Source of the DNA: Nemertoderma westbladi
Taxonomy: Eukaryota; Animalia; Xenacoelomorpha
Assembly: GCA_032718475.1 (NCBI GenBank)
Contig: JAUCBJ010002337.1
Location: forward strand, 1-56,911
Reading direction: 5' to 3'
DNA: 56,911 bases
Shown here: in pieces, positions 19,615-56,054 of the stretch
Position numbering within the stretch: position 1 is the first letter of the stretch
Layout: each line of letters starts with the position of its first letter
Program-made: the position numbers and the translations under genes
Notes under the pieces: model-generated
Seen by the model: only the letters and a program-made list of their open reading frames with translations
What the model was told of the DNA's origin: nothing
Databases searched by the model: none

Positions 19615-21028
19615 TACCCCGAGATTCAGCTTAAACGAATTAAATCACGGGAAGGTGGAAGTGGATGGTGTTCTCTTTCGGACATTTTGCCCTCTAGCGG
19701 CAGACTTCAGAACTGCAGACCGTTGTGTTCTAGCACATATATGACACACTTCAGCTTAACGGATCATAAATAACATAATGGGTCAAGGATTTCACTTGGG
19801 GACTATTCGCCCTCAAGCGGCATACTAGAGAACTGCAGACGGATGAGCTTTCTTTGAATGACACAGTTTATAGTCAGTACAAATCTGCCAAGTTTCAGCT
19901 TCAAAGGATTAAAATAAACGGGTAGATATTTATTGTTTAGTCAATATGGTTGCAGACAACAACGACAACCAACTAAAGTATTTGTCATTATTTACCCACC
20001 ACCCTAACACTGTCAGTTCGCTAAGACTTTCTTCGTGTGCATGCCCCACTGCACATCTTGTGGGGTATGGCCGTTTTGGAGGTGTAGTTACGAACCGACA
20101 GTAAGAAATAGCATCACAAAAACATGACAGTTACATCATTTTCACTATTTAATATATTATATAACAACACTATAACACTTTACAACACTCAACTATGCCA
20201 GATGATAACGGTTCATATCTCCAACTTAGGAGAACGAATTGAAACCCTGTCACGATCTTGAGGAACATCATCACTGAAAAAAAAGAAATGATCTAACTCT
20301 TCCTTTTACTCCTCAGAAGCCATCGCCTTAGTGTCAACATCCATGTGTCTGCTGCGCTGCAAGCTAATAAAATTATCTATAACAATTTGATACAAGCAAC
20401 TTACAAAAACATACATATTTACTTTAATTTTACTTTAATTTGACTTTAATATTAAAAAAATTCAATTTATATGTACCTCAATTTTGATCACTAACACATC
20501 CGCATGGATGCCCAATTGTATTTTATGCCTCAATGCCACTATAAACTGCTCTTTTCCAAACGTTTTGCTCCATAAATTCACTTCACGATATCTTAAATTG
20601 CAGGGAATCGCAGGTTGCGGGCACATCAAAAGGCCGTCGACATTAAAAATATCGATAAGCAAACTAAAAAGGAAATGCGAACTACGAAAAATATCGTGGG
20701 ATTGACAACAGCGGACAAACTCAAACTCCGTCAAATTTGCGCGAAAGATGGTGAAGGTCTGATTGGCTGTTTCGCTAATAACCGACCAGTTACCCGGGAC
20801 AATTTCTTGTCAGTACCAGTCGGGTTCAACCCATCAACAAGAAGAGCTTCATCTGCCACATAAATGTTATTTATTTACTTATTAGGATTTGTTATTTGTG
20901 TTTTGTAATTTTATTATCATAATTTTCTATCAAAAATCTAGAATTTTCCCTTTGTCCCCCTTTCCGTCCCAAATTTTCGTTTCGGTTCAAAATTAACTTA
21001 ATGAATGGGAGAATCTTTTAGGCTCGTT

Positions 21029-21679
21029 AAGGAATGCCTGTTCACCACCATGGGTGATCTTCCTCAATAAACCCTTCCACTCTGTTTCCTAAAGGAATGC
21101 CTGTTCACCACCATGTGTGATCTTCCACAGTAAACCCTTCCACTCTGTTTCATAAAGAATGCCTGTTCACCACCATGGGTGATCTTCCATAATAAACCCA
21201 TCCACTCTGTTTCCTAAAGGAATGCCTGTTCACCACCATGGGTGATCTTCCACAGTAAACCCTTCCACTTTGTTTCCTAAAGGAATACCTGTTCACCACA
21301 ATGGGTGATCTTCCACAATAAACCCATCCACTCTGTTTCCTAAAGGAATGCCTGTTCACCACCATCTGTGATCTTCCACAGTAAACCCTTCCACTCTGTT
21401 TCCTAAAGGAATGCCTGTTCACCACCATGGGTGATCTTCCACATTAAACCCTTCCACTCTGTTTCCTAAAGGAATGCCTGTTCACCACCATGTGCGATCT
21501 TCCACAGTAAACCCTTCCACTCTGTTTAATAAAGAATGCCTGTTCACCACCATGGGTGATCTTTCACAATAAACCCATCCACTCTGTTTCCTAAAAAAGA
21601 ATGCCTATTCATCACCATGGGTGATCTTCCACAGTAAACCTTTCCACTCTGTTTCCTAAAGGAATGTCTGTTCATCACA
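21029..21679. repeat. 63-bp minisatellite, about 10 copies
   Basis: Unit AAGGAATGCCTGTTCACCACCATGGGTGATCTTCCACAGTAAACCCTTCCACTCTGTTTCCTA; starts at 21029, 21092 and onward. Confidence 0.95.
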
Positions 21680-21877
21680 ACACTGGAAAGCTCTTTGCAA
21701 AGTAGGTATGATGTTTTATTCCAAAATCGAAATATTTTAATAAACAGTGCAGATGAAAACAGCGCATTAAAAAACGTTTTCTACTACTATAATCGGCCTG
21801 CTGCATTGCAGCTTCACATTGATATGCTATGCCAGCTGAAGAAAACCACCACCATGTAATTCACAATTGAAAAGCTC

Positions 21878-27514: not shown

Positions 27515-28073
27515 TTATTATCTTGTGGGGCGAGCCACGCAGTCAGGGCGAACCTTAGCGCACAATTATAATTAGTAAATAGGGCAAAATTTCATGGCCG
27601 TCTGTCTGTCTGTCCGTCTGTCTGTAATGAAAAATTCATTCGTAAATAACTTGTGAAGGTTTTAACCATTTTCAACCAAATTTATACTCTTACTCTTACT
27701 AGAGAAAAAGTTCCAATATTTTCGAAAGTTACGGGCAAATACCTCTCGAACTTTTGACTCCAGATCAAATCAAACTTGTTTCGAACTGGCTCAAGTTCGC
27801 GTGCTGCGCGACGCCCCACGAACGTGTAAACTTCAGTTGGTTGTATTATATTAAAAAGTAAACAGACTCCTCTATACATAATCATTATGTTTGTACATTA
27901 ACTATCTGTAGAACTTGTTGACCTTGAATGATTTGAGTACCAGTTGAATTACTGGGACTGTGGGAGTAAACCTTGGGTTAGGAGTAGCGTCCACCCTTGC
28001 CCTACCTTCAGGTAGCAGATAGGAGTAGCGCCCACCCCTACCTTCGGGTAGCAGATAGGAGTAGCGCCCACCC
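27515..28073. mobile_element. Possible Helentron/HINE-like non-autonomous element, left part (continues at 39954 to about 40535)
   Basis: (GTCY)n microsatellite CCGTCTGTCTGTCTGTCCGTCTGTCTGT at about 27598, followed by a core tandem repeat, the layout of DINE/HINE elements. A GC hairpin-like end GGCCTCGGCCGAGTGC lies at about 40511. Confidence 0.4.
27982..28073. repeat. 36-bp minisatellite, left part
   Basis: GGAGTAGCGCCCACCCCTACCTTC(A/G)GGTAGCAGATA, about 2.5 copies, interrupted by element A. Confidence 0.9.
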
Positions 28074-29315
28074 TGTAAAAGCTTTTGCGTAATTAGCCGG
28101 TTATTATCCCCGTAAAGTACTCTGTGGTTGGTTTACCAGGCATAAAAAGGCCGTGTCCTTGCTGTACTGGTGTTTTGGAGGACATAAAAGCCATTTCTTC
28201 TGTATTTGTACTTTAGAGGACATAATCTGTAATTTCGTGACGTAAAAGGCTCGATACTCTTGAAAACAGTGTCGCTACCATGACGACGGCTAACGGCTGA
28301 TATTGCCACGTTGCAACTTTCTGTATCTGCCAATAGAATTTGAGTTAGCTTTGATTTTGACCTATCACAGAGCTACTGAACTGAATTTTCCTATCTCACT
28401 GCTCTTTCTCTGTGTTGAACGGGAGCTTCGTGGAATAAGGGTAGCTGGTATTCTTATAGTTATTCTTATCAGTGTTGTTGGTGATTCTAAGCCAGGAAGA
28501 ACGGCTTTAGAGTATTTTGTGCTTTTATGCTTTAGCCTTACACTAGTAGGCTTAATTATAAGGACATATATCCGTTATCTGCATACTGCATACTGCAGTA
28601 CTGCATACACTGCATACTGTGTAACACTGTGCATACTTTTAGAATTGTTATACTGCTATTTACTGTCAGTTCTTCATAATATGGTTGATGAATTATTATA
28701 TTTGGAATAACGACAAATAACCCCGAAAACCCAATATTCTTGATATACCGAAGGTAAGAGAGAAAGGTTACAGATAAATGATTGCGACCTATGTTGAGTG
28801 GTTTGAAGTGAATCTAATGTTATTTGATAGACCCTACATGATTCGGTCCGTGTTCCTTTTATATGTGACTAAAATCAGTGAAGATCGGCAGATCAGTGTG
28901 CAGTATTGTGCAGCATTGTGTATGAGTGAGACTGATAACGAAGCATTTCCTAAAGAATGCGCCATATATGTGAATTGTAACTAAGCCATATCGTTGTGAG
29001 TAGTTTAAGTCATAACTCTGTTTATATAGATAGAGCGCCACGTCCTAAAGGAACTGTTAATATTCCCTGAAGGTGAATAATATTGTCAGAGATTATATAA
29101 TACTGTCAGTCGAATAATACATTAGGCTTACATAGCAATAAGATTAAGCTGTCGAAATCAATCTCCCGGGTATATCCAACGGGTGAATGATCGCGCACAG
29201 ATTGGTTTCAACTAGTGTAGTGAATCAAATACTTGTTAGAGGCTAAAGCGATTTATTATCTAGAAGACATCCTAATTTGGCGGGTTAAACTGCCAAAGGT
29301 CTGAAAGCGCGAACA
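28074..29315 (+). repeat. Element A 5' LTR
   Basis: Matches 38712-39953 at an offset of 10638. Confidence 0.95.
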
Positions 29316-29327
29316 ATAACGGATATA
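29316..29327 (+). promoter_or_regulatory. Non-tRNA primer-binding site ATAACGGATATA, complementary to LTR 28567-28578
   Basis: No TGG at the PBS position; perfect 12-bp complement to TATATCCGTTAT in the LTR; compensated in copy B. Confidence 0.75.
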
Positions 29328-31557
29328 GCTTCTTTATTGCAGTAAGCAATAAAGTTGAAAGTACCGGTCAACCGGTAAACCTGAACGGTCCATCTGTAGG
29401 TCAGTAGGCCCAACTGCCAGAACCGGTACTGCCGTAGGCCCGTAGGTCCAACTGCCAGAACCGGTACTTCAGTAGGTCGGTACGCCTAACTGTCCTAACC
29501 GGTACTTCCCGTATAAGTACAGCAGTATTATTCGATTTGATTATATATGCCGGTAGGTCTTAATAATTAATCGGGGACGCCTGGTTTTTATTGAGATTTT
29601 ACTTATTTCTGTCAAGTTTTATTTGTTTGTAGGCCAGTATTGAACAGAAGGCGTGTAAGCCTGATCAGATTGTACAGACAATTTGTAGGCTGAGCTGTTG
29701 TCTGATTGCTGTTAAGTCTGAACGGATTGCAGTGTGTGTAGATCACCTGTCCGATTAAGTACGGTTAGGAAGTAGGGGCAGCGAATGCTGTAAGGTAAAC
29801 CCCCAACTAAAGAATAAGTCGTACTACTGGGTTAGAACGCATACTCCCTAATCATTTCGGAGTCTGCATGTCCTGTAGTTTATTTAGGCTTGAGAGTAGT
29901 CTGCCATCGTTTAGTCTGTACTTTGTTTGTGTAAGTCTGTACGGGTAGCGTATAATTTTATTTAGATAATTTGTAGGCTGGATAGTTGTCTGGCTGTTAT
30001 TAGGCCTGAGCGGATTGCAGCGTGTGTAGATCACTTGTCCGATAAAGAACGGTTAGGAAGTAGGGGCAGCGAATGCTGTAAGGTAAACCCCCAATTAAAG
30101 AATAAGTCGTACTACTGGGTTAGAACGCATACTACCTAATTATTTCGGAGTCTGCATATACCGTAGTTTGTTTAGGCTTGATAGTAGTCTGTCAGTGTTC
30201 GGTCTGCATTTTGTTTGAGTAGTTTGTACGCGTAGCGTAATATTTATTATTCAGAGTTTATGCGATTATTCGCAACATTCATTCCCCAAGTTTGTTCCTA
30301 CAGTAATTGTGTTTGTTATACATACCGCTATAGTTAAATTAACCCCAGTACTACACGGGCTGCTTGGCATAGGTAAAGACTGGTGATTTTGTGCATCGGT
30401 CACTCCAGCAGATGCCGTGGTTCTTTTAGCTGTTCAAGTATATTTAACTACTGATTATCTGTTGTACAAGTACTCGTACCTAATTTAGGGTTTAGTGTAC
30501 AGTACTTTCCGAAGTAATTAGTGTAGACATTATATTTGTGTTGTAAAGTGGTTAATAGGCACGTTCGATTAGCTCTATTAACTTCTAGGTAGGAACACTC
30601 CGTGATACATAACGTAGAACCTATAGCGATACGGCTATAGGTCGTCAGGCGGTGGTATTTTTCTATCTGGACAACGCAGTGTATTTACTACTACTTATTA
30701 TTTCAAATACCGTAGTACCCTGTCCGTTGTAATAACCAGAATTCTAACCCTTTGTTAGGCTGGTTTGTAGACTTCTTGTAAAATTACCCTGAAATTCGTA
30801 TTTTGTGTTTTTGTAAATTTTTGTGTTTATTTAGAGATTGTAATCTCAACCCGAATTGTACGTAATTTGTAGTATTAAGTAACTTAGGTAAATTAGAATT
30901 ATTTGTTTTAGTGTCCTATAAGTAACACTTCACTGAAAGCGCACCGCTTTGTGTAGTGATTACTCCCCAGAAATAATAACATTTATTTCAAACATTGACT
31001 AAACCCATTAAAACGGGTATATATATATTATAAATCAAATCTAACGATTTATAAATAGTAGGCCTACCATATAACAATTAGGTCTCAATATCAGTTGGAC
31101 TACTGCTTAACTAACGGCAATAAAGTAAGTTAAAGTAACCAAGTAACCCTAAAATTCAGAAATTCAATTATTTAAAATAATTGATACACCGGTATTTACG
31201 ATAGGCCTATTATCTTATTTCTATAAATTTAGGCTGAAATTATACCGGTGCTTGTAATTAATTCTAGTCCAGAATTATATATACTACAAACTGTAAGCTG
31301 TATACCAGTATTCCCGATAGGCCTATTATATATTTATATATATTTGTGCTAAAATTATACCGGTATTCTGTGATAAACCTAGTCTGTAATAATAGTTATA
31401 TATACTATAAGCATACCGGTATTCTAATATATTATATATATCACGCTACACTGAGTAGCAGTACCGGTAATTAATTACTAGGCTAGCAGTTAATACTGAG
31501 TTACTAGACTTGCTCAGACTGTAATACAGCAGTAGATATTCAACTGTACACATAAGC

Positions 31558-34500
31558 ATGTCTGACGCAAAGCAGAACCTGTCAGACAGTCTACTAGATA
31601 CAACCGAGAGCGAAGTGACAGCAGAGAAACCGCATAAGAGGGATGCCATTGACATCTATCTGTCAGACTATCAACGTTTTTTAGGTAATGACGAGTTGAG
31701 GAGAAGGTTAGAGGGACTTAGCCCTAATAGTGAAGGAACCAAGCTTGTGTTGGATGCCATCGATGTGGAAATGAGGGCTGCGAATCAGGCTAAATTTGAT
31801 GAACAACTCCGCCTGACACGAGTCCAAGAAGAACAAGTAAAGAAAAAACGGATAGAAGATAGAAAGACAGCAGCAGCGGCAGTGGCAGCGGCAGAAGCGG
31901 ATAGAAAAGCGGCAGAGGCAGCGGCAGAGGCAAAAGCGGCAGCGGCAGAGGCAGCGGCAGAGGCAAAAGCGGCAGCGGCAGAGGCAAAAGCGGCAGCTGC
32001 GGCCGAAGCGGAAAGAAAAATAGCAGTAGCAGAAGCAGAACGGAGGGCGGCTGAAGAAACCATCCAATTAGAATTGGAAAACATTCAGGAGAATCAAGAC
32101 TGCATAAATAAACAGTTAACAGCTAGTAATATGCAGATGATGAATCGATCTACTCCCAAAAGACAGGGATATACATCATCTGAGGAAGGCGATACCACCG
32201 ATACTGAAGGCAAAGGAAATAGATCTCGTCTAAGCAGACGTAAAAGAACATTCCACCGTCAGAAATTGCCTGATTTGCCTCCAGCTGTTAGAAGGCAACT
32301 AAATAGCACCAACTTAGGCAGTACAGAACCCACAGACCAAATAATTAAAATAGAAAGACTCCCTACTATAGTAGATGAGCCTGAAATAATTAGGCCTGTT
32401 CTCGAAATCACCCCTTCGGTGATAGACACACCTGTGCTCCCTGAAGTTACCTCTAAATTCCCTCTGCATAGCACTAAGCTACCTGTGCCCCGTAGAACTG
32501 CCCCAGAGACAGTTCAAGTCCTGGATCCCGAGCGAAATATTCATAATTTGTCGCCCGTTGTCCCTCGTCCGCCCGCTACAATGTTGGCGACTCCCGCTTC
32601 GGCGGTCGAATGGGTGGACGAGAGACGGCGGGGGATGGATATCCTGCTCGGGCAGATGCAGGAGACTGTCCAGCAATTCAAGGGCACAGTAAGGGAAAGT
32701 AGGCTAGAGTTGCAAGAAGTGCAGCAAAGTATCGCGCTCGAACGCGATAAATTAGTAAATACCCAAAAGGGTATACCACCACCCTCTGTAACAATGTGTC
32801 AACCTGTTAGGTCTGAAGTATCGCATGCGCAAGGTGTGGAGCCTACACGCATATATACTGCTAGCGAAGTAGAAACTCCTATAGTGAACCCTATTAAGGG
32901 TAATTATAGACTTGTTGATAATGATATTCCACATAGAACTGATCATAATCCGAGAAATTTATATACCGATAACTTGATATTAAATAACACGATGGCCCAA
33001 GAAAGTTTTACGCGTCAAATGGCTAGAACCGAAGCCCGGCAAGCGGTAAAGGTGGGAGAGATCGTCAAGTTCAATGGAGATGAGATGAAATGGTTACCTT
33101 TTAATGAATATTACAAAGATAACATACAGAACTCTGTACTATCTAATGGAGAAAAACTTAGATACCTCATCGAGTGCTTGGAAGGATCTCCCAAGTTAAT
33201 GGCGTTAAGGTTTATTGGACATCCAGACGGATTAAGACAAGTTTGGGATACACTAAACATCAGGTATGGTAATAGGAATAACATAGCTGGGTATTTGTAT
33301 GCAAAGTTGGTAGCGCCCCGAAAGTTTATTAGCAGCGGGATTATAGAGTTTTCCGATGAAATTCAGGAGATCTGCAGACAATTAGATTGGCTAGGTAAGT
33401 CTCATGAGTATCAGAGTGCTATGGTTATTAGAGCAGTGGCTTCTACTTTACCGAAGGGTGGAGTAGGTACACGCTGGGATAAGAAAGTGTTATATATGAT
33501 GGAACAACAACGACGAGACCCTACCATGGCTGATCTCATGTCATTCTTAGATGGAGAAGTGAAATTACAGCTCCTAAGGCAGTCCAGAGAGAAGACATTG
33601 GAAAACAAGGTAAGTGAGAAACCCGTTTCTAGGAGAAGGGTAACACCAGTATGTTATACCGACGACGGTGAAAGCCAAACTTCTCAAGGAGAGGACAGCG
33701 GAAAAGACACTGACAGATCTTATTATGTCAATAAAATGCCTAAAGATCAGGTAAGTAAATCCGAGTCTCGACCCAATGACAGAAGGGAACCGGTACAAAA
33801 AACCCTTCCTACGTCTCCTAAAAGAATTCAGGTGAGAAAGCCCGAGGAAAGAACAAGTGTGCACCACATAGCACAGGTTAAAGTAAGTAACATCAAGCCG
33901 AAATGTGTGCTGTGCGACGGGCCCCACTGTTTAAATGCGTGTGATAAATTCCTGAGGAAATCACTAAAGGATAGACGTGAAGTCATGTGGGATAAGCGGT
34001 TGTGTTATAATTGCCTCAGACGAGGACACCAACGGCGAACCTGTTACTCCGACGCAAGGTGTGCAAAGTGCGGCGCAAAACATCATATCTTGTTGCACAC
34101 GGAATTCGAACGAAACAGCCCGAGTCAGGTAAGTGAGTCCGAACTACATGTCCAATTCAGTGATGTGAACGACACTGATCAATCTGAGATGGAAGGATTC
34201 TATACGGACGAGTTCTCCGACGAAAACGAATCCTGTTACTTAATAAACACCACCGCAGTGTATCGAGCACTCAAGTATGAGAAAGACACAGACAGTGACC
34301 TCACCCTAACTACTTCAGATCAACAACCATCTTGGAAAGCGCCAACTTCCAATGTAGGAATCCGAGAATTTCCTGTAGTCCAGTTACGGGTCCTCGGACC
34401 TCAGAAGAGCTATATAGTGAACGCCCTCCTGGACTCCGGCAGCACGGGAACATTCATCGATAGGGAACTAGCCGAGGACATCTTTGCTGGACAACCCAAG

Positions 34501-35643
34501 TTCCGAACCAAGCTAAACATGTCAGGGATCATGCAGGTTTGGAAATCTGCTGTGGCTGCCGACTATTATATAGGTGAGTTGTCCACTCCACAGGATAAAC
34601 TAGGAGAACACAGTATAAGGTCAGTCAAAATGGTGGCAATAAAGAACTTCGCTACTACTCAAGCAGACCTTTATAATTGGGACGAGGATGAGAGCATCCA
34701 ACATCTTAAGATACCTCGATTCCAGACTGATTATCCGGGAGTGCAAATACTCATCGGCCAAAATGCGCATGAGGCGCTGGAGACATTAGAGAAACGACCT
34801 ACTCAACCGCAATCACTTCAGACATATGCGGTAAGAACTAGAGTAGGTTGGTACCTTACTGGACCTTCCCGTAGAACGCTCAGGGAAAGACTGCTTCAAG
34901 ATCACGTCTGCCAGGTGAGTGAATGGGAAGACGATACTAGTGAGGGAGACGACCCAACTGAGGGAACACCACACTCCTCAGATAATGACAATCTTAACTC
35001 CAATGTAGATCAATGGAGATATTGCCCCAAGACGATGAATACAACTGACATCGCTTCCAGAGGAGCAACTCCTCAAGAACTGACAGATACTACAGACCGG
35101 TTAGGTGAACCCGACTTCCTGAGTAAGGAGGATGAATTGCCTCCCCATCTTACTCCGACTGAGATTAGACCAGCCAAGGGAGCGGAGAAAGTTAAACCTA
35201 AAACCCGGACGGGTGGAGCGGAGTTATTTGAACCCGGGATAGATCTGTCGGTATTACATATTGCCAGGGACGACGCCCTGGATCTGGACCTCCCCACCGC
35301 GAGTGGATCCTTCATGAAGATCAGAAAGAGCGATTGGAGCTCTGGAACATCAGACGTCTCGCAGGGACTCTCACCTCTCCTGCAGAGAGCGACGGACCAC
35401 TATAGCTCCTGGAATCGGCTTTGTGACGCCGTCATATACTTTGAGCGATGTTTCTATCGTCACTATTCCAGGACGAAGAGGAAACCTGGAATTGTATTCA
35501 GGATGCAGCGACTCAATCACCCAGTCGGTCGTTTGTGTTTACCGGAAGGGAATGGAGGACTCTCCGGAAACTGTGGAAGGCAAGATTCTCATCCCACGAC
35601 CACCTCCCTAATCCTTCAAACATCTAGGGACTCCATAACGTAA
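31558..35643 (+). CDS. Bel/Pao Gag-protease polyprotein fused in frame to the RNase H C-terminal stub; no RT or integrase
   Basis: DUF1759-like Gag (KFNGDEMKW..F, EKLRYL, L..RYGN). Triple knuckle CVLCDGPH..C / CYNCLRRGH..C / CAKCGAKHH..LH. Protease ALLDSGS, ILIG, GWYLTGP. Then directly QWRY..N..DIASRG, PDFL and YSSWNRL. Confidence 0.9.
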   Translation: MSDAKQNLSDSLLDTTESEVTAEKPHKRDAIDIYLSDYQRFLGNDELRRRLEGLSPNSEGTKLVLDAIDVEMRAANQAKFDEQLRLTRVQEEQVKKKRIEDRKTAAAAVAAAEADRKAAEAAAEAKAAAAEAAAEAKAAAAEAKAAAAAEAERKIAVAEAERRAAEETIQLELENIQENQDCINKQLTASNMQMMNRSTPKRQGYTSSEEGDTTDTEGKGNRSRLSRRKRTFHRQKLPDLPPAVRRQLNSTNLGSTEPTDQIIKIERLPTIVDEPEIIRPVLEITPSVIDTPVLPEVTSKFPLHSTKLPVPRRTAPETVQVLDPERNIHNLSPVVPRPPATMLATPASAVEWVDERRRGMDILLGQMQETVQQFKGTVRESRLELQEVQQSIALERDKLVNTQKGIPPPSVTMCQPVRSEVSHAQGVEPTRIYTASEVETPIVNPIKGNYRLVDNDIPHRTDHNPRNLYTDNLILNNTMAQESFTRQMARTEARQAVKVGEIVKFNGDEMKWLPFNEYYKDNIQNSVLSNGEKLRYLIECLEGSPKLMALRFIGHPDGLRQVWDTLNIRYGNRNNIAGYLYAKLVAPRKFISSGIIEFSDEIQEICRQLDWLGKSHEYQSAMVIRAVASTLPKGGVGTRWDKKVLYMMEQQRRDPTMADLMSFLDGEVKLQLLRQSREKTLENKVSEKPVSRRRVTPVCYTDDGESQTSQGEDSGKDTDRSYYVNKMPKDQVSKSESRPNDRREPVQKTLPTSPKRIQVRKPEERTSVHHIAQVKVSNIKPKCVLCDGPHCLNACDKFLRKSLKDRREVMWDKRLCYNCLRRGHQRRTCYSDARCAKCGAKHHILLHTEFERNSPSQVSESELHVQFSDVNDTDQSEMEGFYTDEFSDENESCYLINTTAVYRALKYEKDTDSDLTLTTSDQQPSWKAPTSNVGIREFPVVQLRVLGPQKSYIVNALLDSGSTGTFIDRELAEDIFAGQPKFRTKLNMSGIMQVWKSAVAADYYIGELSTPQDKLGEHSIRSVKMVAIKNFATTQADLYNWDEDESIQHLKIPRFQTDYPGVQILIGQNAHEALETLEKRPTQPQSLQTYAVRTRVGWYLTGPSRRTLRERLLQDHVCQVSEWEDDTSEGDDPTEGTPHSSDNDNLNSNVDQWRYCPKTMNTTDIASRGATPQELTDTTDRLGEPDFLSKEDELPPHLTPTEIRPAKGAEKVKPKTRTGGAELFEPGIDLSVLHIARDDALDLDLPTASGSFMKIRKSDWSSGTSDVSQGLSPLLQRATDHYSSWNRLCDAVIYFERCFYRHYSRTKRKPGIVFRMQRLNHPVGRLCLPEGNGGLSGNCGRQDSHPTTTSLILQTSRDSIT

Positions 35644-37301
35644 CAACATATGGAGTGGGCGTGTGACTCTATTATTTTATATTATTTTATTGTTTTTATA
35701 TTTACGTATGTATTACTATGTAATTTTATTATAATCGTTTTATTTAATTTTATTTACTAGAATATTATTTAGCGATTATTTAGTAGAATAGTGCAATATA
35801 TTCGTGTTTATTGCGTACGTAATTACTTATAATATATATTTAGTGCGACGGCAAGAAATAATTCTTTTCCTTCTTCCTTACTGTCCGTATTACATTACAA
35901 ATACGTAACTACAGTAAGATGAAATGTCCGTACTTATTAAAGTACAATAAAGCCACTACTATATTTAAGTATTATTGGTAGGCAGAGTATTAGGAATGCA
36001 AAGTTCAGATCCTCGTGTCTCGGCTAAACCAAGCTCTGGGTAGACCTTGGAAACGACTTGCCTCTTCACACTGACATTGCTTCGTGCGATATTGCTCTCA
36101 TACCGTATATTAAATAATACATATAGTAGCGTGATGTCCCTTTAACAGTAGCGTTTAATGCAAAATAAATCTGTTAAACCCTTTGACCATCTGTAATTCT
36201 AGTCGATTAAGATATCGCGGCACCCACCGATATACTTGAAAGACAAATTCTAGAATCAGTGGTTAACGTCCCCAGACAAGTTCTGGAATAAATCGGTGCC
36301 CATCTCAAATATTAATTATTTAATATTTGCAAATCTAATAAATCAAAATCTGTAAAATTCAGATCCTTCAACAATTCTAGTCAATTAAGATATCGTAGCA
36401 TTTACCGATATTCTTAAAAAAGACAATTGTCATAGAATTAAGGATCTTGTGTCCCTAGACATGTTCTAGAATCAAAATATGTCCATTTAATTATCAAATA
36501 ATAAAATTTCAGGGAATAAATTTAAATTCATGCCTTTTAATGAATTTAATAAATTGCCATTTTTACGCAATTTATAACATTCCCAAAATTCCATTAATTA
36601 ATAGATCAAGGGAGCGGAGATTTATCTTATTATGCATATGAGTGTGCGAAAGTCTCCCAAACATAGTCAATAGCCGATAAAATTCATAGAGTCATGTATA
36701 AAACAGAACATTGACTATTAAAGAATACTATTAAATAACATCCCAGATCTGTATGTATTGGAATTACCCTAATTCTACCGCTAGCTTTGCATAATGTCAC
36801 CATAGCAACAACCACGCTAGAATTAGAATTGAGTTAAAAGAACAATAGAAAGCTTGTCCCATTGAATAGCATAGGGAATAAATAGCGCACTACTAGTATC
36901 CAAGGATACATAATAATACAGTGACATTCTGGAAGGCATTGACTAACGGACAAATGGCCCGAATGTGTAATTTGTGACAAGTTGTGTGTGTGGTATTTGT
37001 GAGTTTATAGGCGAATGTTACTACTAAGGTGTGTTTACAGTAGCGAGTCGCAATTGTGAAAGTAACCCTAACTCTCCAGTAAGAACCTGAGGTGTATCTA
37101 AGCCTTTGGGACGGACAGTCGAATGACTTGTGCCGGTTGTCGTTGTCGTTGTGCGGCTACGTCGTTGGCGAAAGTACAGCGGCGACGACACATCGGCGCT
37201 GAGGATCTCGTACTGTCCGGGGGTTGATTGGGGTAGGCAGCGACGCCCGCTCGCCTAAATGTGGACTCATTATAATATGGATAAACTCATATATAGCAGA
37301 T

Positions 37302-38608
37302 ATGACGGAGTTGATAGAAGATGGTCTTGGTATCGGGGAGCGATATACTCTACTTTTACAAGCGTTTGTTGATAGCTTAATACGCGGCGACGTTAGTCCA
37401 ACTGCTGCGGAGGACGATGGTCGTTATATCGAACCGCCAATGTCCCAAGAGCAGCTCACGCGTGAGTTGGACTATAGAAAATTCGCTGCTCGATATACGC
37501 AGCGTAATGGTACGTATATGGTCTTCTTAACTACTGGTCCTCCTATCGATTTACATAATACGGACTATGTCGACTATATATCCTGCCCAGCGGAGTCGGA
37601 ACCATAAACTGAAATTCGAATGCGAAAATTCTATTCGAAATCGACTCGAAAGAAAAGACACTAAAGAAACAAATAAACGCGGTAACTCCAACGTATATTT
37701 GGAATTCTTGATAGAAGCATTGTAACAACAAATAAATATCACCCGCGTTTCCCCTACCAGACGTGCGTCTTTGGTATTATTACGATAAATGCCCTAGACC
37801 CAACTAATAAACGGAAAGACATAAACATCCACGGAAACGTTGTGTTAAACACAGTTGTGCTCGTTATATTTACTGGAGTTTCGAGCGAAACTTGTTTGAC
37901 GTATCACATATGCTCACTCGGCTCGAACGATCCTGGAGTAAACCTACGATCAGAGTCCCGGAATACTCGGTCAAACCTCCTCATTCCTTAGTTGGACCTC
38001 AGACCTGCGATCCTGGTGGTGTCGCGGATCCTCGCGGACTGTATTCACTGTTCAAAGATCTAGTGCTACCCTAACAATTAATCGGTAACACTCCGACAGT
38101 GATTTCTAGCTAGCCGCCCATCTTACCTAGCTGGATTGTGACGCGGACACCTAATATCACTATCCAACCGTATGGTCGTTCCCGTTTAACGCGATACAAC
38201 CCTTCATCAAGGTGAAGGAGAGCGTTGTACGAAACGAGTTAAACGCTATTCTATAAAGATCAAAAAGGAAACCTGCGTTTGTTCAGATAAACGTAAGTTA
38301 TAACAGTAAGTCCAATCGATAAACGAATTGGCCTTATCTCAGTTCGATTTGGAAATCTCGAATCTCTAAGAAGAAATCAAGCTTAGAAAACCCTATTCTC
38401 GGCGAGAGTTTTGGATGAACGTATCCAGCTACGAGCGGAGGAAAATCAGCTCGAGGAGAAGCATATCGAAACGGCGGATACCCCGACCATAATCCTACAC
38501 CTTCTGATGCAATCATATTGCACCCTTCACCCAGGATTTATAGCCCTCCTAGTAAAGTGGCTCGCCCCAAAGAGAAAAGGACTCTTGCTAGCCTCAAAAA
38601 CTGCGTAA
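37302..38608 (+). pseudogene. Decayed second ORF of element A, at the env/accessory position; unidentified
   Basis: Protein-like frames (MTELIEDG..., RFPYQTCVFGII.., SFERNLFDV.., DERIQLRAEE..) are colinear with element B and broken by stops and frameshifts. Confidence 0.55.
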
Positions 38609-38711
38609 ACGCCGTCTGCGTAAGAAAGACTAACTGTTTAGAGTATCTTTATATTTTAGAAACTGTGATTTGTTATATTTTATAGACTTAAATCCCATTT
38701 TCTGGGAGTGG

Positions 38712-39953
38712 TGTAAAAGCTTTTGCGTAATTAGCCGGTTATTATCCCCGTAAAGTACTCTGTGGTTGGTTTACCAGGCATAAAAAGGCCGTGTCCTTGC
38801 TGTACTGGTGTTTTGGAGGACATAAAAGCCATTTCTTCTGTATTTGTACTTTAGAGGACATAATCTGTAATTTCGTGACGTAAAAGGCTCGATACTCTTG
38901 AAAACAGTGTCGCTACCATGACGACGGCTAACGGCTGATATTGCCACGTTGCAACTTTCTGTATCTGCCAATAGAATTTGAGTTAGCTTTGATTTTGACC
39001 TATCACAGAGCTACTGAACTGAATTTTCCTATCTCACTGCTCTTTCTCTGTGTTGAACGGGAGCTTCGTGGAATAAGGGTAGCTGGTATTCTTATAGTTA
39101 TTCTTATCAGTGTTGTTGGTGATTCTAAGCCAGGAAGAACGGCTTTAGAGTATTTTGTGCTTTTATGCTTTAGCCTTACACTAGTAGGCTTAATTATAAG
39201 GACATATATCCGTTATCTGCATACTGCATACTGCAGTACTGCATACACTGCATACTGTGTAACACTGTGCATACTTTTAGAATTGTTATACTGCTATTTA
39301 CTGTCAGTTCTTCATAATATGGTTGATGAATTATTATATTTGGAATAACGACAAATAACCCCGAAAACCCAATATTCTTGATATACCGAAGGTAAGAGAG
39401 AAAGGTTACAGATAAATGATTGCGACCTATGTTGAGTGGTTTGAAGTGAATCTAATGTTATTTGATAGACCCTACATGATTCGGTCCGTGTTCCTTTTAT
39501 ATGTGACTAAAATCAGTGAAGATCGGCAGATCAGTGTGCAGTATTGTGCAGCATTGTGTATGAGTGAGACTGATAACGAAGCATTTCCTAAAGAATGCGC
39601 CATATATGTGAATTGTAACTAAGCCATATCGTTGTGAGTAGTTTAAGTCATAACTCTGTTTATATAGATAGAGCGCCACGTCCTAAAGGAACTGTTAATA
39701 TTCCCTGAAGGTGAATAATATTGTCAGAGATTATATAATACTGTCAGTCGAATAATACATTAGGCTTACATAGCAATAAGATTAAGCTGTCGAAATCAAT
39801 CTCCCGGGTATATCCAACGGGTGAATGATCGCGCACAGATTGGTTTCAACTAGTGTAGTGAATCAAATACTTGTTAGAGGCTAAAGCGATTTATTATCTA
39901 GAAGACATCCTAATTTGGCGGGTTAAACTGCCAAAGGTCTGAAAGCGCGAACA
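38712..39953 (+). repeat. Element A 3' LTR
   Basis: Matches 28074-29315. Confidence 0.95.
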
Positions 39954-43056: not shown

Positions 43057-44222
43057 TGTTCGCGCTTTTAAGACCCTTGACAGTTTAACCTGCCAAATTA
43101 GGATGTCTTTTGGATGATATATATTCTTTAGCTTATGACGAGTATTTGATACACTACATTAGCCGAAGCCAGCCTATGCGCAATCATTCACCCGTTGGAT
43201 ATACCCGGGAGACTGAGTTCGGAGCTTAATGATTGATGGTGTAAGCCTACCGTATTATTCGACTGATCGTAATATATAATCTCTGACAAATATTATTCAC
43301 TTTCGGTAAATATTAACAGTTCCTTTAGGACGTGGCGCTCTAAATATGTAAACAGAGTTATGACTTAAACTAGACACAACGAAAAGGCTATAGATTAACG
43401 TATATGGCGCATTCTTTAGGAGATGCTTTGTTATCAGTTACAATCATACACAATACTGCACAATACTGCACACTAATCTGCCTACCTTCACTAAATTTGG
43501 TCACGTATAAAGAGAGCAACAGACAATTTATGTTGGGCATATGAAATAGCATTAGATTCACTTCAAACCACTCAACATAGGTCGCAATCGTTTATCTGTA
43601 ACTGGTCTCTCTAACCTTTAGTATATCAAGAAGGTGGGGTGTCTGACTATTGATCAGTATTCCGATATAATAATTCATCAACAAATATCACGAATAACCA
43701 ACAGCAAAAGCAGTAATGTAAGATATGAATTGCATAGATATGTATGATAAGATTGTAATTAACTCGATAACAGATATACGTTCTATAATTAAGCCTACTA
43801 ATGTAAAGCTAAAGAACGCTGATATACGGAGGTGCTAAAAGCCAATGTTCTTAGGCTCTGAGCAAAAACATAACACTGAACTACTGAGTTCTGTACACAC
43901 CTCCAACACAGAGACAAAAAACGCTCTGATTGGTCAACCGAACAACGAGAGAACAAAGAAACAAAGAAACGTCGACGTGGCAATATCAGCTGTTAGCCGT
44001 CGTCATGGTAGCGACACTGTTTTCAAGAGTATCCAGCTTATCGCGTCACGAGATTGCGGATTATGTCCTCTAAAGTACAAATACAGTACAAATACAGAAG
44101 AAATGACTTTTATGTCCTCTAAAACACCAGTACAGCAAGGACACGGCCTTTTTATGCCTGGCAAACCAACTACAGAGTACTTTAAGGGAAAATAACCGGT
44201 TAATGACGCAAAAGCTTTTACA
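43057..44222 (-). repeat. Element B 3' LTR
   Basis: Matches 54889-56054 at an offset of 11832; preceded on the minus strand by TGGGAGCGG. Confidence 0.95.
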
Positions 44223-48988: not shown

Positions 48989-51900
48989 TTACGTTATGGA
49001 GTCCCTAGATGTTTGAAGGATTAGGGAGGTGGTCGTGGGAAGAGAATCTTGCCTTCCACAGTTTCCGGAGAGTCCTCCATTCCCTTCTGGTAAACACAAA
49101 CGACCGACTGGGTGATTGAGTCGCTGCATCCCGAATACAATTCCAAGTTTCCTCTTCGTCCTGGAATAGTGACGATAGAAACATCGCTCTAGGTACACGA
49201 CGGCCTTACAAAGCCGATTCCAGGAGCTATAGTGGTCCGTCGCTCCCTGCAGGAGAGGTGAGAGTCCCTGCGAGACGTCTGATGTTCCAGAGCTCCAATC
49301 GCTCTCTCTGATCTTCATGAAGGATCCACTCGCGGTGGGGAGGTCCAGATCCACGGCGTCGTCCCTGGCAATATGTAATACCGACAGATCTATCCCGGGT
49401 TCAAATAACTCCGATCCACCCGTCCGGGTTTTAGGTTTGACTTTCTCCGCTCCCTTGGCTGGTCTAATCTCAGTCGGAGTAAGATGGGGAGGCCATTCAT
49501 CCTCCTTACTCAGGAAGTCGGGTTTACCTAACCGTTCTGTAGTATCTGTCAGTTCTTGAGGAGTTGCTCCTCTGGAAGCGATGTCAGTTGGATTAAACTT
49601 CTTGGGGCAATATCTCCATTGATCTACATTGGAGCTAATATCGTCATTATCTGAGGAGTATGGTGTTCCCTCAGTTGGGTCGTCTCCCTCACTAGTATCA
49701 TCTTCCCATTCACTCACCTGGCAGACGCGATCTTGAAGCAGTCTTTCTCTGAGCGTTCTTCGGGAAGGTCCAGTAAGGTACCAACCTACTCTAGTTCTTA
49801 CCGCATAGGTCTGAAGTGGTTGCGGTTGAGCAGGTCGTTTCTCCAATGTCTCCAGCGCCTCATGCGCGTTTTGACCGATTAATATTTGTACTCCAGGATA
49901 ATCGGTGTCGAATCTAGGAATGTTAAGTTGTTGGGCATGATCATCTTCGTCCCAATTATAAGGTTCCACTTGGGTGGTAGCGAAGTTCTTTATTGCCACC
50001 ATTTTGACTGACCTTATACTGTGTTCTCCTAGTTTATCCTGTGGAGTGGACAACTCACCTATATAATAGTCGGCAGCTACAGTAGAATTCCAAACCTGCA
50101 TGATCCCTGACATGTTTAGCTTGGTTCGGAACTTGGGTTGTCCAGCAAAGATGACTTCGGCTAGTTCTTTATCGATGAATGTTCCTGTGCTACCGGAGTC
50201 CAGGAGGGCGTTCACTATATAGCTCTTCTGAGGTCCGTGGACCCGTAACTGGACTACAGGAAATTCTCGGATTCCTATATTGGAAGTTGGCGCTTTCCAA
50301 GATGGTTGTTGATCAGAAGTAGTTAAGGTAAGGTCGCTGTCTGTGCCTTTCTCATGCATGAGTGCTCGATACACTGCGGTGGTGTTTATTAAGTAACAGG
50401 ATTCGTTTTGGTCGGAGAATTCGTCCGTATAGAATCCTTCCATCTCAGAACTTTGGTCAGTGTCGTTCACATCACTGAATTGGACATGTAGTTGTTCGGA
50501 CTCACTTACCTGACTCGGGCTGCTTCGTTCGAATTCAGTGTGCAACAAGATGATGTTTTGCACCGCACTTTGCACACCTTGCGTCGGAGTAACAGGTTCG
50601 CCGTTGGTGTCCTCGTCTGAGGCAATTATAACACAACCGCTTATCCCACATGACTTCCCGTCTCTCTTTTAATGATTTCTTTAAGAATTCATCGCACATA
50701 TTCAAGCGGTGGGGCCCATCGCACAGCACACATTTGGGTTTGATGTTACTTACTTTAACCTGTGCTGTGTGGTGCACACTTGTTCTCTCCTCGGGCCCTC
50801 TCACCTGAACTCTCTTGGGAGACGTAGGAGGAGTTTTTCTTACCTGTTCTCTCCTGTCATTGGTTCGAGACTTGAATTTACTTACCTGATCTTTAGGCAT
50901 TTTATTTACGTAATAAGATCTGTCAGTGTCTTTCCCGCTATCTTCTCCTTGAGAAGTCTGGCTTTCGCCATCATCTGTATAACACACTGGTGTTACCCTT
51001 CTCCTAGAAACGGGTTTCTCACTTACCTTGTTTTCCAGTGTCTTCTCTCTGGACTGCCTTAGGAGCTGTAATTTCACTTCTTCATCTAGGAATGACATGA
51101 GATCAGCCATGGTAGGGTCTCGTCGTTGTTGTTCCATCATATATAACACTTTCTTATCCCAGCGTGTGCCTACTCCACCTTTCGGTAAAGTAGAAGCCAC
51201 TGCTCTAATAACCATAGCACTCTGATACTCATGAGACTTACCTAGCCAATCTAATTGTCTACAGATCTCCTGAATCTCATCGGAAAACTCTATAATCCCG
51301 CTGCTAATAAACTTTCGGGGCGCTACCAACTTTGCATACAAATACCCAGCTATGTTATTCCTATTACCATACCTGATGTTTAGTGTATCCCAAACTTGTC
51401 TTAATCCGTCTGGATGTCCAATAAACTTTAACGCCATTAACTTGGGAGATCCTTCCAAGCACTCGATGAGGAATCTAAGTTTCTCTCCATTAGATAGTAC
51501 AGAGTTCTGTATGTTATCTTTGTAATATTCATTAAAAGGTAACCATTTCATCTCATCTCCATTGAACTTGACGATCTCTCCCACCTTTACCGCTTGCCGG
51601 GCTTCGGTTCTAGCCATTTGACGCGTAAAACTTTCTTGGGCCATCGTGTTATTTAATATCGAGTTATCGGTATATAAATTTCTCGGATTATGATCCGGTC
51701 TATAGGGAATATCATTATCAACAGGTCTATAATTACCCTTAATAGGGTTTACTATAGGGGTTTCCACTTCACTAGCAGTATAGATGCGTGTAGGCTCCAC
51801 ACCTTGCGCATGAAATACTTCAGACCTAACAGGTTGACACATTGTTACAGGGGGTGGTGGTATACCCTTTTGTAAATTGACTAATTTATCGCGTTCTAAC

Positions 51901-52684
51901 GCGATACTTTGCTGCACCTTTTGCAACTCTAACCTACCTTCCCTGACTGTTCCCTTGAGCTGCTGAACAGTCTCTTCCATTTCCCGGACCTGCTGGGAGG
52001 AACATTTACAATGTTCCCTCAGCTGCCCGAGCAGGAGACCCATCTCCCGTCGTCCCTCAGCTACCCACTCGACCGCCGAAGCGGGAGTCGCCAACGTAGT
52101 AGCGGGCAAGCGAGAGACGACGGGCGATAAATTCTGGATATCTCGCTCGGCGTCCAGGATGGGTTCGGACTCGGGAACAGTCCTACTGGGCACAGGTAGT
52201 TTCGTGCTGTGTAAAGGGAATTTAGAGGTAGGTTCTGGGAGTACAGGTGTCTCTATCACCGCAGGGGTGGCTTTGAGAACAGGCCTAATTATTTCAGGCT
52301 CATCTACTATAGTAGGGAGTCTTTCTACTGTAATAATTTGGTCTGTGGGTTCTGTACTACCTAAGTCTGTGCTAGCTAGTCTCACCACAGGAGGCAAATT
52401 AGGTAACTTCGGACAGTGTGGCATTCTTCTACGCCTGCTTGAACGAGATTTATTACCTCTACTTTCGGGATCTCTTATATCACCTTCATCGGATAACTGT
52501 CTTAATAACTGTCTTCCGATTTGTCTCCTCAAGTCTGCTTCTGCCACTGCCTCTGCCGCTTTTCTTTCCGCTTCTGCCGCTGCTACTTTTCTTTCTTCTA
52601 TCCTTTCAAGACACTGTCCAAGTCGAAGACTCATTCTAACACTTTTCAAAAGACTATCTGACAGTGCCCGTTTTGTGTCAGATA
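48989..52684 (-). pseudogene. Element B Gag-protease ORF; start codon ATA and a 2-nt frameshift at about 50548
   Basis: ORFs 50535-52649 (Gag) and 48989-50575 (PR + RNase H stub) align to A's 1361-aa protein. CATCATATCTTG in A is CATCATCTTG in B, and the position of A's ATG reads ATA (52682-52684). Confidence 0.85.
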
Positions 52685-54877
52685 TGTTTGATTGTACAGT
52701 TGAATGTCTACTGCTATATTACAGTTAAAGCAAGTCTAGTAATTCAGTATCACTGTTAGCCTAATAATTAATTACCGATACTGCAACTCAGTGGAGCGTG
52801 ATATATATATAATATATTAGAATACCGGTATGCTTATGGTATATATAAGTATTATTACAGACTAGGTTTTTTACAGAAACCGGTATATAATTTTAGCACA
52901 GATATATATAAATATATAATAGGCCTATCGTGGATACCGGTATGCAGTTTACACTTATAGTATATATAAGTATAATTATTAACTAGAATTAATTACAGAA
53001 TACCGGTATGATTTCAACCTAAAATTTATAGAAATAAATATAATAAGCCTATTGTAAATACCGGTATGTCAATTATTTTAGAATAATTGAATTTCTGAAT
53101 TTTAAGGGATACTTGGTTACTTTAACTTACTTTATCGCCGTTATTTAAGCAGTAGTCCAACTGATATTGAGACCTAATTGTTATATGGCAGGCCTACTAT
53201 TTATAAATCGTTTGAGTTGATTTATAATATATATATACCCGTTTAATGGGTTTTGTCAATGTTTGAAATAAATGTTATTATTTCTGGGGGAGTCACTACA
53301 CATAAGCTGTGCGCTCTCAGTGGAGTGCTACTTGTTAGACACTAAAACAAATAATTCTAATTTACCTAAGTTACTTAATACTACAAATTACGTACAATTC
53401 GGGTTGAGATTACAATCTCTAAATAAACACAAGAATTTAATTACAAATACACAAATACAAATTTTTAGGGTAATTTTACAAGAAGTCTACTAACCAGCCT
53501 AACAAAGGGTTAGAATATCTGGTTATTACAACGGACAGGTTACTACGGTATTTGAAAATAATAAGTAGTAGTAAATATACTGCGCTGTCCAGATAGGAAA
53601 ATACCACCGCCTGACGACCTATAACCGTATCACTATAGGTACTACGTTATGTATCACGGAGTGTCCCTACCTAGAAGTTAATTACCGCGGTCTACCAGAA
53701 CCAACGTGCCTATTAACCACTTTACAACACAAATACACTGCCTACACACTAATTGCTTTCGGAAAGCACTGTACACTAAACCCTAAATTAGGTACAAGTA
53801 CTTGTATAACAAATAATTAGTAGTTAAAATACTTGAACAGCCAAAAGAACCACGGTATCTGCCGGAGTGACCAAAGCACAAAATCTCCAGTGTTTACCTA
53901 CGCCGAGCAGCCCTGATGTAGTACCGGGGTTAGTTTAACTATAACGGTATGTATAACAAACACAATTACTGTAGGAACAAACTTGGGGAATGAATGTTGC
54001 GAATAATCGCATAAACTCTGAATAATAAATATTACGCTACGCGTACAAACTACTCAAACAAAATGCAGACCAAATACTGACAGACTACTATCAAGCCTAA
54101 ACAAACTACGGTATATGCAGACTCCGAAATGGTTAAGTAGTATGCGTTCTAACCCAGTAGTACGACTTATTCTTTAGATGGGGGTTTACCTTACAGCGAT
54201 GGCTGCCCCTACTTCCTAACCGTTCTTTATCGGACAGATGCTTTGCACACACCGAAATTTCCTCAAACCCAACAACAGCCAGACAACTATCCAGCCTACA
54301 AATTATCTAAATAAAATTATACGCTACCCGTACAGACTACACAAACAAAGTACAGACCAAACGCTGGCAGACTCCTATCAAGCCTAAATAAACCACAGGA
54401 CATGCAGACTCCGAAATGGTTAAGTAGTATGCGTTCTAACCCAGTAGTACGACTTATTCTTTAGATGGGGGTTTACCTTACAGCGATGGCTGCCCCTACT
54501 TCCTAACCGTTCTTTATCGGACATACACTCTACATGCACTGCAATCCGTTCAGACCTAATCAACAGTCAGCCAACAGTCAAGCCTACAAATTATCTGTAC
54601 AATCTGAGCAGGCTTACACGCCTTCTGCTCAATACTGGCCTACAAATAAATAAAACTGGCAGAAATAAGTAAACTATACAAAAGAATGAGGGGTGATCAA
54701 TCCCTATTCCCCTGGCAGCCTACATTATACAATAGATCACAATCGAATAATACTGCTGTACCTGTACCGTAAGTACCGGTTCGGGCAGTTGGGCCTACAG
54801 GCCTACAGTAGTACAGGTTACCGTTCAACCGGTACCGGTACTTTAGACTGGATTGCTTACACCGCAATCCAGAAGCA

Positions 54878-54888
54878 ATATCTGTTAT
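54878..54888 (-). promoter_or_regulatory. Non-tRNA primer-binding site ATAACAGATAT, complementary to LTR 55599-55609
   Basis: Abuts the 5' LTR end at 54889; perfect 11-bp complement inside the LTR. Confidence 0.75.
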
Positions 54889-56054
54889 TGTTCGCGCTTT
54901 TAAGACCCTTGACAGTTTAACCTGCCAAATTAGGATGTCTTTTGGATGATATATATTCTTTAGCTTATGACGAGTATTTGATACACTACATTAGCCGAAG
55001 CCAGCCTATGCGCAATCATTCACCCGTTGGATATACCCGGGAGACTGAGTTCGGAGCTTAATGATTGATGGTGTAAGCCTACCGTATTATTCGACTGATC
55101 GTAATATATAATCTCTGACAAATATTATTCACTTTCGGGAAATATTAACAGTTCCTTTAGGACGTGGCGCTCTAAATATGTAAACAGAGTTATGACTTAA
55201 ACTAGACACAACGAAAAGGCTATAGATTAACGTATATGGCGCATTCTTTAGGAGATGCTTTGTTATCAGTTACAATCATACACAATGCTGCACAATACTG
55301 CACACTAATCTGCCGACCTTCACTAAATTTAGTCACGTATAAAGAGAGCAACAGACAATTTATGTTGGGCATATGAAATAGCATTAGATTCACTTCAAAC
55401 CACTCAACATAGGTCGCAATCGTTTATCTGTAACCGGTCTCTCTAACCTTTAGTATATCAAGAAGGTGGGGTGTCTGACTATTGATCAGTATTCCGATAT
55501 AATAATTCATCAACAAATATCACGAATAACCAACAGCAAAAGCAGTAATGTAAGATATGAATTGCATAGATATGTATGATAAGATTGTAATTAACTCGAT
55601 AACAGATATACGTTCTATAATTAAGCCTACTAATGTAAAGCTAAAGAACGCTGATATACGGAGGTGCTAAAAGCCGATGTTCTTAGGCTCTGAGCAAAAA
55701 CATAACACTGAACTACTGAGTTCTGTACACACCTCCAACACAGAGACAAAAAACGCTCTGATTGGTCAACCGAACAACGAGAGAACAAAGAAACAAAGAA
55801 ACGTCGACGTGGCAATATCAGCTGTTAGCCGTCGTCATGGTAGCGACACTGTTTTCAAGAGTATCCAGCTTATCGCGTCACGAGATTGCGGATTATGTCC
55901 TCTAAAGTACAAATACAGTACAAATACAGAAGAAATGACTTTTATGTCCTCTAAAACACCAGTACAGCAAGGACACGGCCTTTTTATGCCTGGCAAACCA
56001 ACTACAGAGTACTTTAAGGGAAAATAACCGGTTAATGATGCAAAAGCTTTTACA
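54889..56054 (-). repeat. Element B 5' LTR
   Basis: Matches 43057-44222. Confidence 0.95.

What the first reader, a model, noticed from the sequence alone, without database searches (positions are those of the whole stretch)
28567..29327. Candidate tRNA-independent, self-priming Bel/Pao retrotransposon: PBS pairs with its own LTR, with a compensatory change between subfamilies
Seen: in A the 5' LTR end (…GCGAACA, 29315) is followed with no spacer by ATAACGGATATA rather than TGG. Its exact complement TATATCCGTTAT lies inside the LTR (28567-28578). In B the PBS is ATAACAGATAT (54888-54878) and the LTR site reads ATATCTGTTAT (55609-55599), so a G:C pair became A:T on both sides. The LTR site sits in a roughly 50-bp island (TTTAGCYTTACAYTAGTAGGCTTAATTATA…) conserved between A and B while the LTR sequence on either side has diverged. 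The primer 3' end would sit exactly at the LTR edge. Known: S. pombe Tf1 and related Gypsy chromoviruses self-prime with the first 11 nt of their RNA, released by RNase H; from memory the Tf1 PBS also starts ATAAC (verify). Bel/Pao elements are described as tRNA-primed. Inference: an independent origin of self-priming in Bel/Pao, over a loop of about 710-740 nt, with transcription starting near 28567.
Basis: partly seen in the sequence, partly recalled or inferred. Interest (0 to 1): 0.92.

Follow-up and report, generated by a model that had tools for sequence, protein, structure and literature searches.

The report
Self-pairing primer site in BEL/Pao retrotransposons
Two cut-down BEL/Pao jumping genes lack the usual tRNA landing site and carry there 11-12 letters that pair exactly with their own terminal repeat, as distant relatives do with quite different letters, so this group likely starts copying itself with a piece of its own RNA.

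Summary
Observation confirmed. Elements A (28074-39953) and B (56054-43057) are non-autonomous gag-protease BEL/Pao elements. No TGG follows the 5' LTR; the next 12 (A) or 11 (B) nt are the exact complement of a site in a family-wide conserved LTR island, with one matched change. New here: 7 of 7 distant BEL/Pao elements from metagenomes whose LTR end could be fixed show the same own-LTR complement (10-15 nt, unrelated sequences), five across a GT-AG splice junction, so the pairing likely happens in RNA. Self-priming is the best reading (0.7) but is inferred: no RNA start, cut site or primer was seen. Against: many copies in the population differ at PBS positions 1 and 5, and their partner site could not be read. 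Not found in print; this scan noted the pattern before on other DNA (seven notes).

The parts
28074..29315 (+). Element A 5' LTR (TG...CA, 1242 nt)
   Evidence: identical to 38712-39953
28069..28073 (+). Target-site duplication of A, left copy (right copy 39954-39958); insertion lies in a 36-nt minisatellite
28531..28579 (+). Conserved LTR island: predicted 7-bp hairpin (28534-28552) followed by the PBS-complementary site
28567..28578 (+). PBS-complementary site of A (candidate 3' end of the self-primer); second copy 39205-39216
28754..29035 (+). Possible intron inside the LTR (GT..AG ends present in A and B); unverified
   Evidence: control one search gives it no special support
29192..29196 (+). 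Predicted partner of the LTR end 29307-29311 (5 bp, one change kept as G-U)
29276..29297 (+). Predicted U5 hairpin, 3 of 8 pairs changed on one side, none broken
29316..29327 (+). Primer-binding site of A, no TGG
29332..29354 (+). Leader hairpin right behind the PBS, 2 of 9 pairs changed on both sides
31525..35643 (+). Gag (DUF1759, three zinc knuckles) + protease + short RNase H-end vestige, 1372 codons stop to stop; no RT, no integrase
38704..38711 (+). Purine-rich tract before the 3' LTR (candidate PPT)
38712..39953 (+). Element A 3' LTR
54889..56054 (-). Element B 5' LTR (1166 nt); target duplication TGCTG
55599..55609 (-). PBS-complementary site of B
54878..54888 (-). Primer-binding site of B
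48989..52718 (-). Gag-protease of B, broken into at least two frames (50535-52718, 48989-50668)
43057..44222 (-). Element B 3' LTR

Best explanation
Elements A and B are non-autonomous BEL/Pao retrotransposons whose primer-binding site is the exact complement of a conserved site in their own LTR, and they likely prime reverse transcription with that piece of their own RNA, which a helper element's RT/RNase H would cut free. Shown: anatomy, complementarity, covariation, the same geometry in distant relatives. Inferred steps: the site lies in the transcribed R region; it folds onto the PBS within a small set of helices; the RNA is cut just 3' of the site (near 28578); the freed 3' OH is extended through U5 and R up to the cut; everything upstream of the cut is then copied from the 3' LTR, which would let relatives keep an intron there although their primer is spliced. 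The primer may be longer than 11 nt (the 5' end of the RNA may lie tens to over a hundred nt upstream) and may come from a second RNA molecule. If the primer is copied at plus-strand synthesis, as reported for Tf1, site and PBS would co-vary by copying rather than by two selected mutations.
For: Exact 12/11-nt complement at the only place a primer can act, no TGG. Meets the published in-silico criterion for a self-primer, >=10 nt starting 0-5 nt behind the LTR (PMC6317226). One two-sided change; 7 of 33 pairs in four helices round the PBS changed, none broken. Island conserved family-wide and ending one base after the site. Relatives: 7 of 7 with a fixed LTR end have a 10-15-nt own-LTR complement, against 0-9 nt with other elements' LTRs and 0-2 of 150 shuffles; none has TGG; 5 are split by a 71-149-nt GT-AG intron. 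With the LTR end unknown, 4 of 7 more give an 11-nt split match with at most 1 of 40 shuffles reaching it. A poly(A) hexamer follows the match inside the LTR in 8 of 11. Control: the window's gypsy element has a TGG PBS and only 5 nt of own-LTR complement (99 of 150 shuffles). Duplex predicted at P 0.96 in A for an RNA starting at 28568.
Against: No RNA start, cut site or primer-DNA junction was observed. Predicted duplex probability in B is only 0.14, and 0.35 / 0.0 (A / B) if the RNA starts at the island's edge. The loop (710-737 nt) is far longer than the 62-216 nt from match to LTR end in relatives. The relatives are distant (20-29% identity to the window's gag-protease, one short segment 41%), so they show a BEL/Pao-wide habit, not that of this family. 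3 of 7 loci and 24 of 31 gave no significant match (many lack a whole LTR; about 3 of the 7 positives are expected by chance). No host tRNA set was available to exclude an internal tRNA match. No AATAAA or clear TATA box in the window's LTRs.
Confidence: 0.7

Rival explanations
1. The pairing is a real RNA helix but not the primer: it closes the genome (the 3' LTR copy of the site pairing with the 5' PBS, aiding strand transfer) or acts as a switch that hides the PBS until packaging, while another RNA primes.
For: The site is present in both LTRs; covariation shows pairing, not priming; in A a local hairpin with 28556-28563 can compete for the site and the duplex is unstable in full-length folds.
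Against: A primer is still needed and no TGG site exists in A, B or 7 of 7 relatives; the PBS sequences of relatives share nothing with one another, which one host primer cannot serve; length (10-15 nt) and position match known self-primers.
Confidence: 0.2
2. A host tRNA half or other small host RNA primes at this PBS; the LTR complement is a by-product or a relic.
For: Half-tRNA priming is known in Ty1/copia lineages (PMC6317226); ICTV describes belpaovirids as tRNA-primed (PMC8742986); host tRNAs could not be searched (no genome held).
Against: A host primer would reset the PBS to one sequence, yet A, B and the population differ at several PBS positions and relatives differ wholly, each tracking its own LTR.
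Confidence: 0.07
3. Chance match in an AT-rich LTR, inherited by both subfamilies.
For: B's match alone arises in 0.5-1% of simulations; only two copies in the window; the single covarying pair has P about 0.03.
Against: A's match 8 of 20000; island ends at the site; 7 of 7 and 4 of 7 relatives repeat the pattern with other letters.
Confidence: 0.03

Closest known systems
Tf1/Tf2 of Schizosaccharomyces pombe, Tj1, Tosmo1-3 and the Tf1/sushi and Tcn1 groups (Ty3/gypsy chromoviruses)
   Same: About 11-nt PBS next to the LTR, complementary to the element's own LTR; no tRNA site; Tf1's PBS also begins ATAAC.
   Different: Different superfamily (BEL/Pao gag and protease, no chromodomain, no pol). 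[quoted passage not shown]
TAR lineage (Houba, Osr-1) of plant Ty1/copia elements
   Same: Self-priming predicted from sequence alone, outside Ty3/gypsy (PMC6317226), so repeated origins already have a precedent.
   Different: Plant copia elements; no splice-junction form in the passages read.
Belpaoviridae (BEL/Pao, genus Semotivirus)
   Same: TG..CA LTRs, 5-nt target duplication, DUF1759 gag with three zinc knuckles, protease, PPT.
   Different: ICTV gives an 18-nt PBS for tRNA-Arg or tRNA-Gly; absent here. RT, most of RNase H and integrase are missing; 11.9 kb long.

Membership tests
BEL/Pao (Belpaoviridae) | Paired LTRs with TG..CA ends and a short target duplication | tested here: met
   5-nt duplications in A and B
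BEL/Pao (Belpaoviridae) | BEL/Pao-type Gag and protease | tested here: met
   DUF1759 E 2e-11; three Cys/His knuckles and LLDSG read from the translation; 21 of 22 hits carry PF05380 or are BEL/Pao-type polyproteins with PF03564; tblastn
BEL/Pao (Belpaoviridae) | Pol with RT, RNase H and integrase | tested here: not met
   tblastn with 9 of 22 polyproteins finds only gag, protease and a 50-85-residue RNase H-end piece: a non-autonomous derivative, not a full member
BEL/Pao (Belpaoviridae) | 18-nt PBS complementary to the 3' end of tRNA-Arg or tRNA-Gly | tested here: not met
   No TGG in the first 8 nt behind either 5' LTR; definition from PMC8742986
BEL/Pao (Belpaoviridae) | Placement in a named clade (Sinbad, Suzu, etc.) by RT/integrase tree | not testable with these tools
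   Elements have no RT; closest proteins about 30% identical; scores do not separate motif groups. 'Sinbad-like' for the FYVDDCL group is a recalled label
Tf1-type self-priming | PBS complementary over >=10 nt to the own 5' LTR, starting 0-5 nt behind it | tested here: met
   12 and 11 nt at offset 0; criterion from PMC6317226
Tf1-type self-priming | [quoted passage not shown] | not testable with these tools
   Only contigs, no raw RNA reads; TATA at -135/-133 in 2 of 11 relatives argues against it for them
Tf1-type self-priming | Three-duplex pretzel: both PBS-adjacent stretches pair with LTR sequence | tested here: inconclusive
   Upstream side: 5-bp helix predicted in A and B; downstream side folds into a local hairpin instead
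Tf1-type self-priming | RNase H cuts the duplex to free the primer | not testable with these tools
   Needs biochemistry; the elements encode no RT/RNase H
Tf1/sushi group (membership) | Ty3/gypsy chromovirus pol with chromodomain | tested here: not met
   Protein is BEL/Pao-type, no chromodomain hit

The most novel reading that the evidence does not exclude
A widespread lineage of animal BEL/Pao retrotransposons has dropped tRNA priming altogether and cuts its primer out of the inside of its own R region, in many families only after host splicing has built it; that makes a third superfamily with self-priming and a route unlike Tf1's cap-proximal 11-mer. The window's very abundant RT-less family is a long-loop, unspliced-site form of it.
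Probability: 0.55. Interest if true: 0.85.

Novelty: new variant of a known kind. Interest (0 to 1): 0.72.

Why it matters
The ICTV profile calls BEL/Pao replication poorly understood and assumes tRNA priming. If a large part of the superfamily primes with its own RNA, then priming mode has switched in all three LTR superfamilies, PBS-based annotation misses these elements, host control through tRNA fragments would not reach them, and the splice-junction form ties the start of reverse transcription to host splicing. It gives exact, testable positions for the RNA cut and the primer-DNA junction.

Tried and rejected
No genome held, so no copy survey and no host tRNA search; ARAGORN found 0 tRNA genes in the window. 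Run search: no RNA holder listed, contigs only; X4's depth rise near 28565 was set aside because contigs cannot show a start and X4 is another organism of guessed kind. The second laying gave no substitution table, so its blank says nothing on covariation; one X3 loose end behind 28577 was judged too weak to use. DNA patterns: 3 chance hits in viral contigs, 0 in metagenome contigs; BEL/Pao alignment on viral contigs, 0 of 24 confirmed. No close protein relative or autonomous partner. Host lineage not found: DUF4504 protein had no hit among 409 candidates. CpG decay as cause of the matched change: rejected. Holding the possible intron unpaired raised the duplex to 0.91-0.98, but other 280-nt blocks did much the same (6 of 7 in A at 0.79 or more, 5 of 7 in B at 0.86 or more): no support for the intron. 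The island-hairpin row was off by one and is replaced. Five classic Tf1 papers were not held.

Full report
1. What is there. Two related LTR elements lie in opposite orientation. A spans 28074-39953 with identical 1242-nt LTRs and a CACCC duplication inside a 36-nt minisatellite. B spans 56054-43057 with 1166-nt LTRs that differ at 7 places and a TGCTG duplication. They differ at 832 of 8776 aligned positions. A has one long frame, 31525-35643, with DUF1759, three zinc knuckles and a protease motif; tblastn with 9 BEL/Pao polyproteins finds gag, protease and a short RNase H-end piece, but no RT or integrase. They are young, non-autonomous BEL/Pao derivatives. The family is very abundant in the runs laid (summed depth above a million in X1). 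No close protein relative was found (best about 30%).

2. The observation. Confirmed at the stated coordinates. The match is 12 nt in A and 11 nt in B, unique in the sense strand apart from the 3' LTR copy; simulated LTRs gave it in 8 and 102 of 20000. One pair changes on both sides; given one change per arm this keeps a Watson-Crick pair in about 3% of simulations. It falls in a CpG, but CpG sites are not hypermutable here. The island 28531-28579 is a depth peak in 4 of 4 runs. Three further helices round the PBS are predicted; with the primer duplex they hold 33 pairs, 7 changed, none broken, the leader hairpin with two two-sided changes. These helices were taken from folds of A and B themselves, so the count leans towards agreement.

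3. Population data that cut the other way. In one search, PBS +1 reads T in 387,698 of 586,761 depth (X1), 181,340 of 344,170 (X3), 16.6 of 22.3 (X4) and 0 of 384 (X5); +5 reads A in 318,181 of 463,662, 189,036 of 294,912 and 16.6 of 22.3 (X5 not covered). 85 rows were not shown. Self-priming predicts matching changes at 28578 and 28574. The focused laying returned no substitution rows at all, so this test is open.

4. Relatives. An alignment of 26 BEL/Pao polyproteins fetched 64 metagenome loci. 51 were screened for LTR pairs (13 short or 3'-partial loci left out); 22 showed a repeat pair. In 7 the LTR end could be fixed (L043's end lies at the contig edge, L007's copies are 77% alike, 2 of 4 checked lack a target duplication). 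None has TGG. All 7 have an own-LTR complement of 10-15 nt: contiguous in L024 and L007, split across a 71-149-nt GT-AG intron in L006, L020, L027, L043 and L065; the same PBS gives 0-9 nt on other elements' LTRs and 0-2 of 150 shuffles reach the score. The split model came from earlier scan notes and I saw these five by eye first, so that part is not blind. With only the LTR start known, 4 of 7 loci (L004, L016, L031, L049) gave an 11-nt split match, at most 1 of 40 shuffles; L030, L067 and L044 did not pass. Of 39 remaining loci 8 were skipped and 7 of 31 passed, about 3 expected by chance; many lack a whole LTR. Among 14 loci compared only L043/L044 are near-identical. The window's gypsy element is the control: TGG PBS, 5 nt, 99 of 150 shuffles. 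Matches lie upstream of a poly(A) hexamer in 8 of 11 and 133-135 nt behind a TATA box in 2 of 11. These loci are only 20-29% identical to the window's protein over the main segments.

5. Mechanism. A complement that exists only after splicing points to pairing in RNA; one that follows each element's own LTR with unrelated letters cannot be served by one host primer; it sits where the minus-strand primer must sit. I therefore take own-RNA priming as most likely (0.7). Inferred, not shown: transcription through the site, the cut near 28578, helper RT/RNase H in trans. Inference from the standard replication scheme: if strong-stop DNA ran to the cap of a spliced RNA the intron would tend to be lost from the LTR; a cut at the primer's 3' end lets everything upstream be copied from the 3' LTR and so keeps it. 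About half of Tf1 cDNA retains a full PBS copy at its 3' end (PMC11042837); if that copy is made from the primer, site and PBS co-vary by copying, which makes the single matched change a sign of priming but not of two selected mutations. Folding gives the duplex P 0.96 (A) and 0.14 (B) from the site's first base, 0.35 and 0.0 from the island's edge; it rises when almost any 280-nt block of the loop is removed, so folding is permissive evidence only. The duplex can be extended upstream through an internal loop (-19.3 and -15.6 kcal/mol), another hint that the RNA may start before 28567.

6. What is known. Tf1: first 11 bases pair with the PBS, RNase H cuts between 11 and 12 (PMC7175516, passages); pretzel of three duplexes (PMC10085805, passages); Tj1 (PMC4600332, passages); Tf2 start-site switch (PMC5341516, passages); ATAAC (PMC11042837, passages); copia TAR and the in-silico criterion (PMC6317226, passages); Belpaoviridae tRNA-primed (PMC8742986, whole text). 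Term searches in PMC3118150 and PMC554778 found no mention of primer binding; passages of PMC3601003, PMC13524379, PMC5443660 and PMC8220671 say nothing on BEL/Pao self-priming. Searches (listings) showed no paper reporting it; the library lacks most subscription papers and Repbase reports, and no supplements were read, so absence from print is not proven. The labels Sinbad-like, Crypton and C1orf74 are recalled. The scan's own notes list seven similar cases in other genomes (none on this sequence or genome); these are leads, not support.

7. Verdict. Real feature; works like Tf1-type self-priming; not a member of the Tf1/sushi group; a non-autonomous BEL/Pao derivative that fails the family's tRNA-PBS feature. 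New variant of a known kind, interest 0.72.

Noticed in passing
window 4227-5943 (-): Two uninterrupted frames in tandem, DUF4504 then NUDIX + Nudix_hydro, with about 90 nt between stop and next ATG holding two pyrimidine-AG acceptor-like sites: operon-like, perhaps a trans-splicing host. The DUF4504 protein had no homologue.
   Followed up: partly
window 28520-28536 and 55655-55640: The island begins at a pyrimidine-rich TTTAG acceptor-like site in both A and B, with no conserved donor upstream; the divergent stretch before it could be an outron or intron.
   Followed up: partly
window 14052-19192 (-): Gypsy-type element, 169-nt repeats 99% alike, one 1496-codon frame with RT, RNase H and integrase, GC about 0.57-0.60, ordinary TGG PBS.
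   Followed up: partly
window 1421-2908 (-): 495-codon frame with DUF3504 and a tyrosine recombinase domain, Crypton-like (name recalled).
   Followed up: no
window 45132-47068: About 1.9 kb in B absent from A, with RT fragments (RVT_1, DUF6451) on the opposite strand; it replaces about 240 nt of A.
   Followed up: no
window 35643-38711 and 29676-30255: About 3 kb without a long frame or pol remnant behind the gag-protease gene, 87-92% alike in A and B; a 288-nt tandem duplication in the 2.2-kb leader, also in B.
   Followed up: no
L049 2424-2440, L051, L052: PBS regions begin alike, but the LTR complement is split by an intron in L049/L051 and contiguous in L052: possible intron gain or loss inside the primer.
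   Followed up: no
L065 9478, L007 911: LTRs end in TATA instead of CA; L065 still has a 5-nt target duplication.
   Followed up: no
window 19204-19700, 21024-21680, 39954-40480: Tandem arrays of 8, 63 and 36 nt.
   Followed up: no
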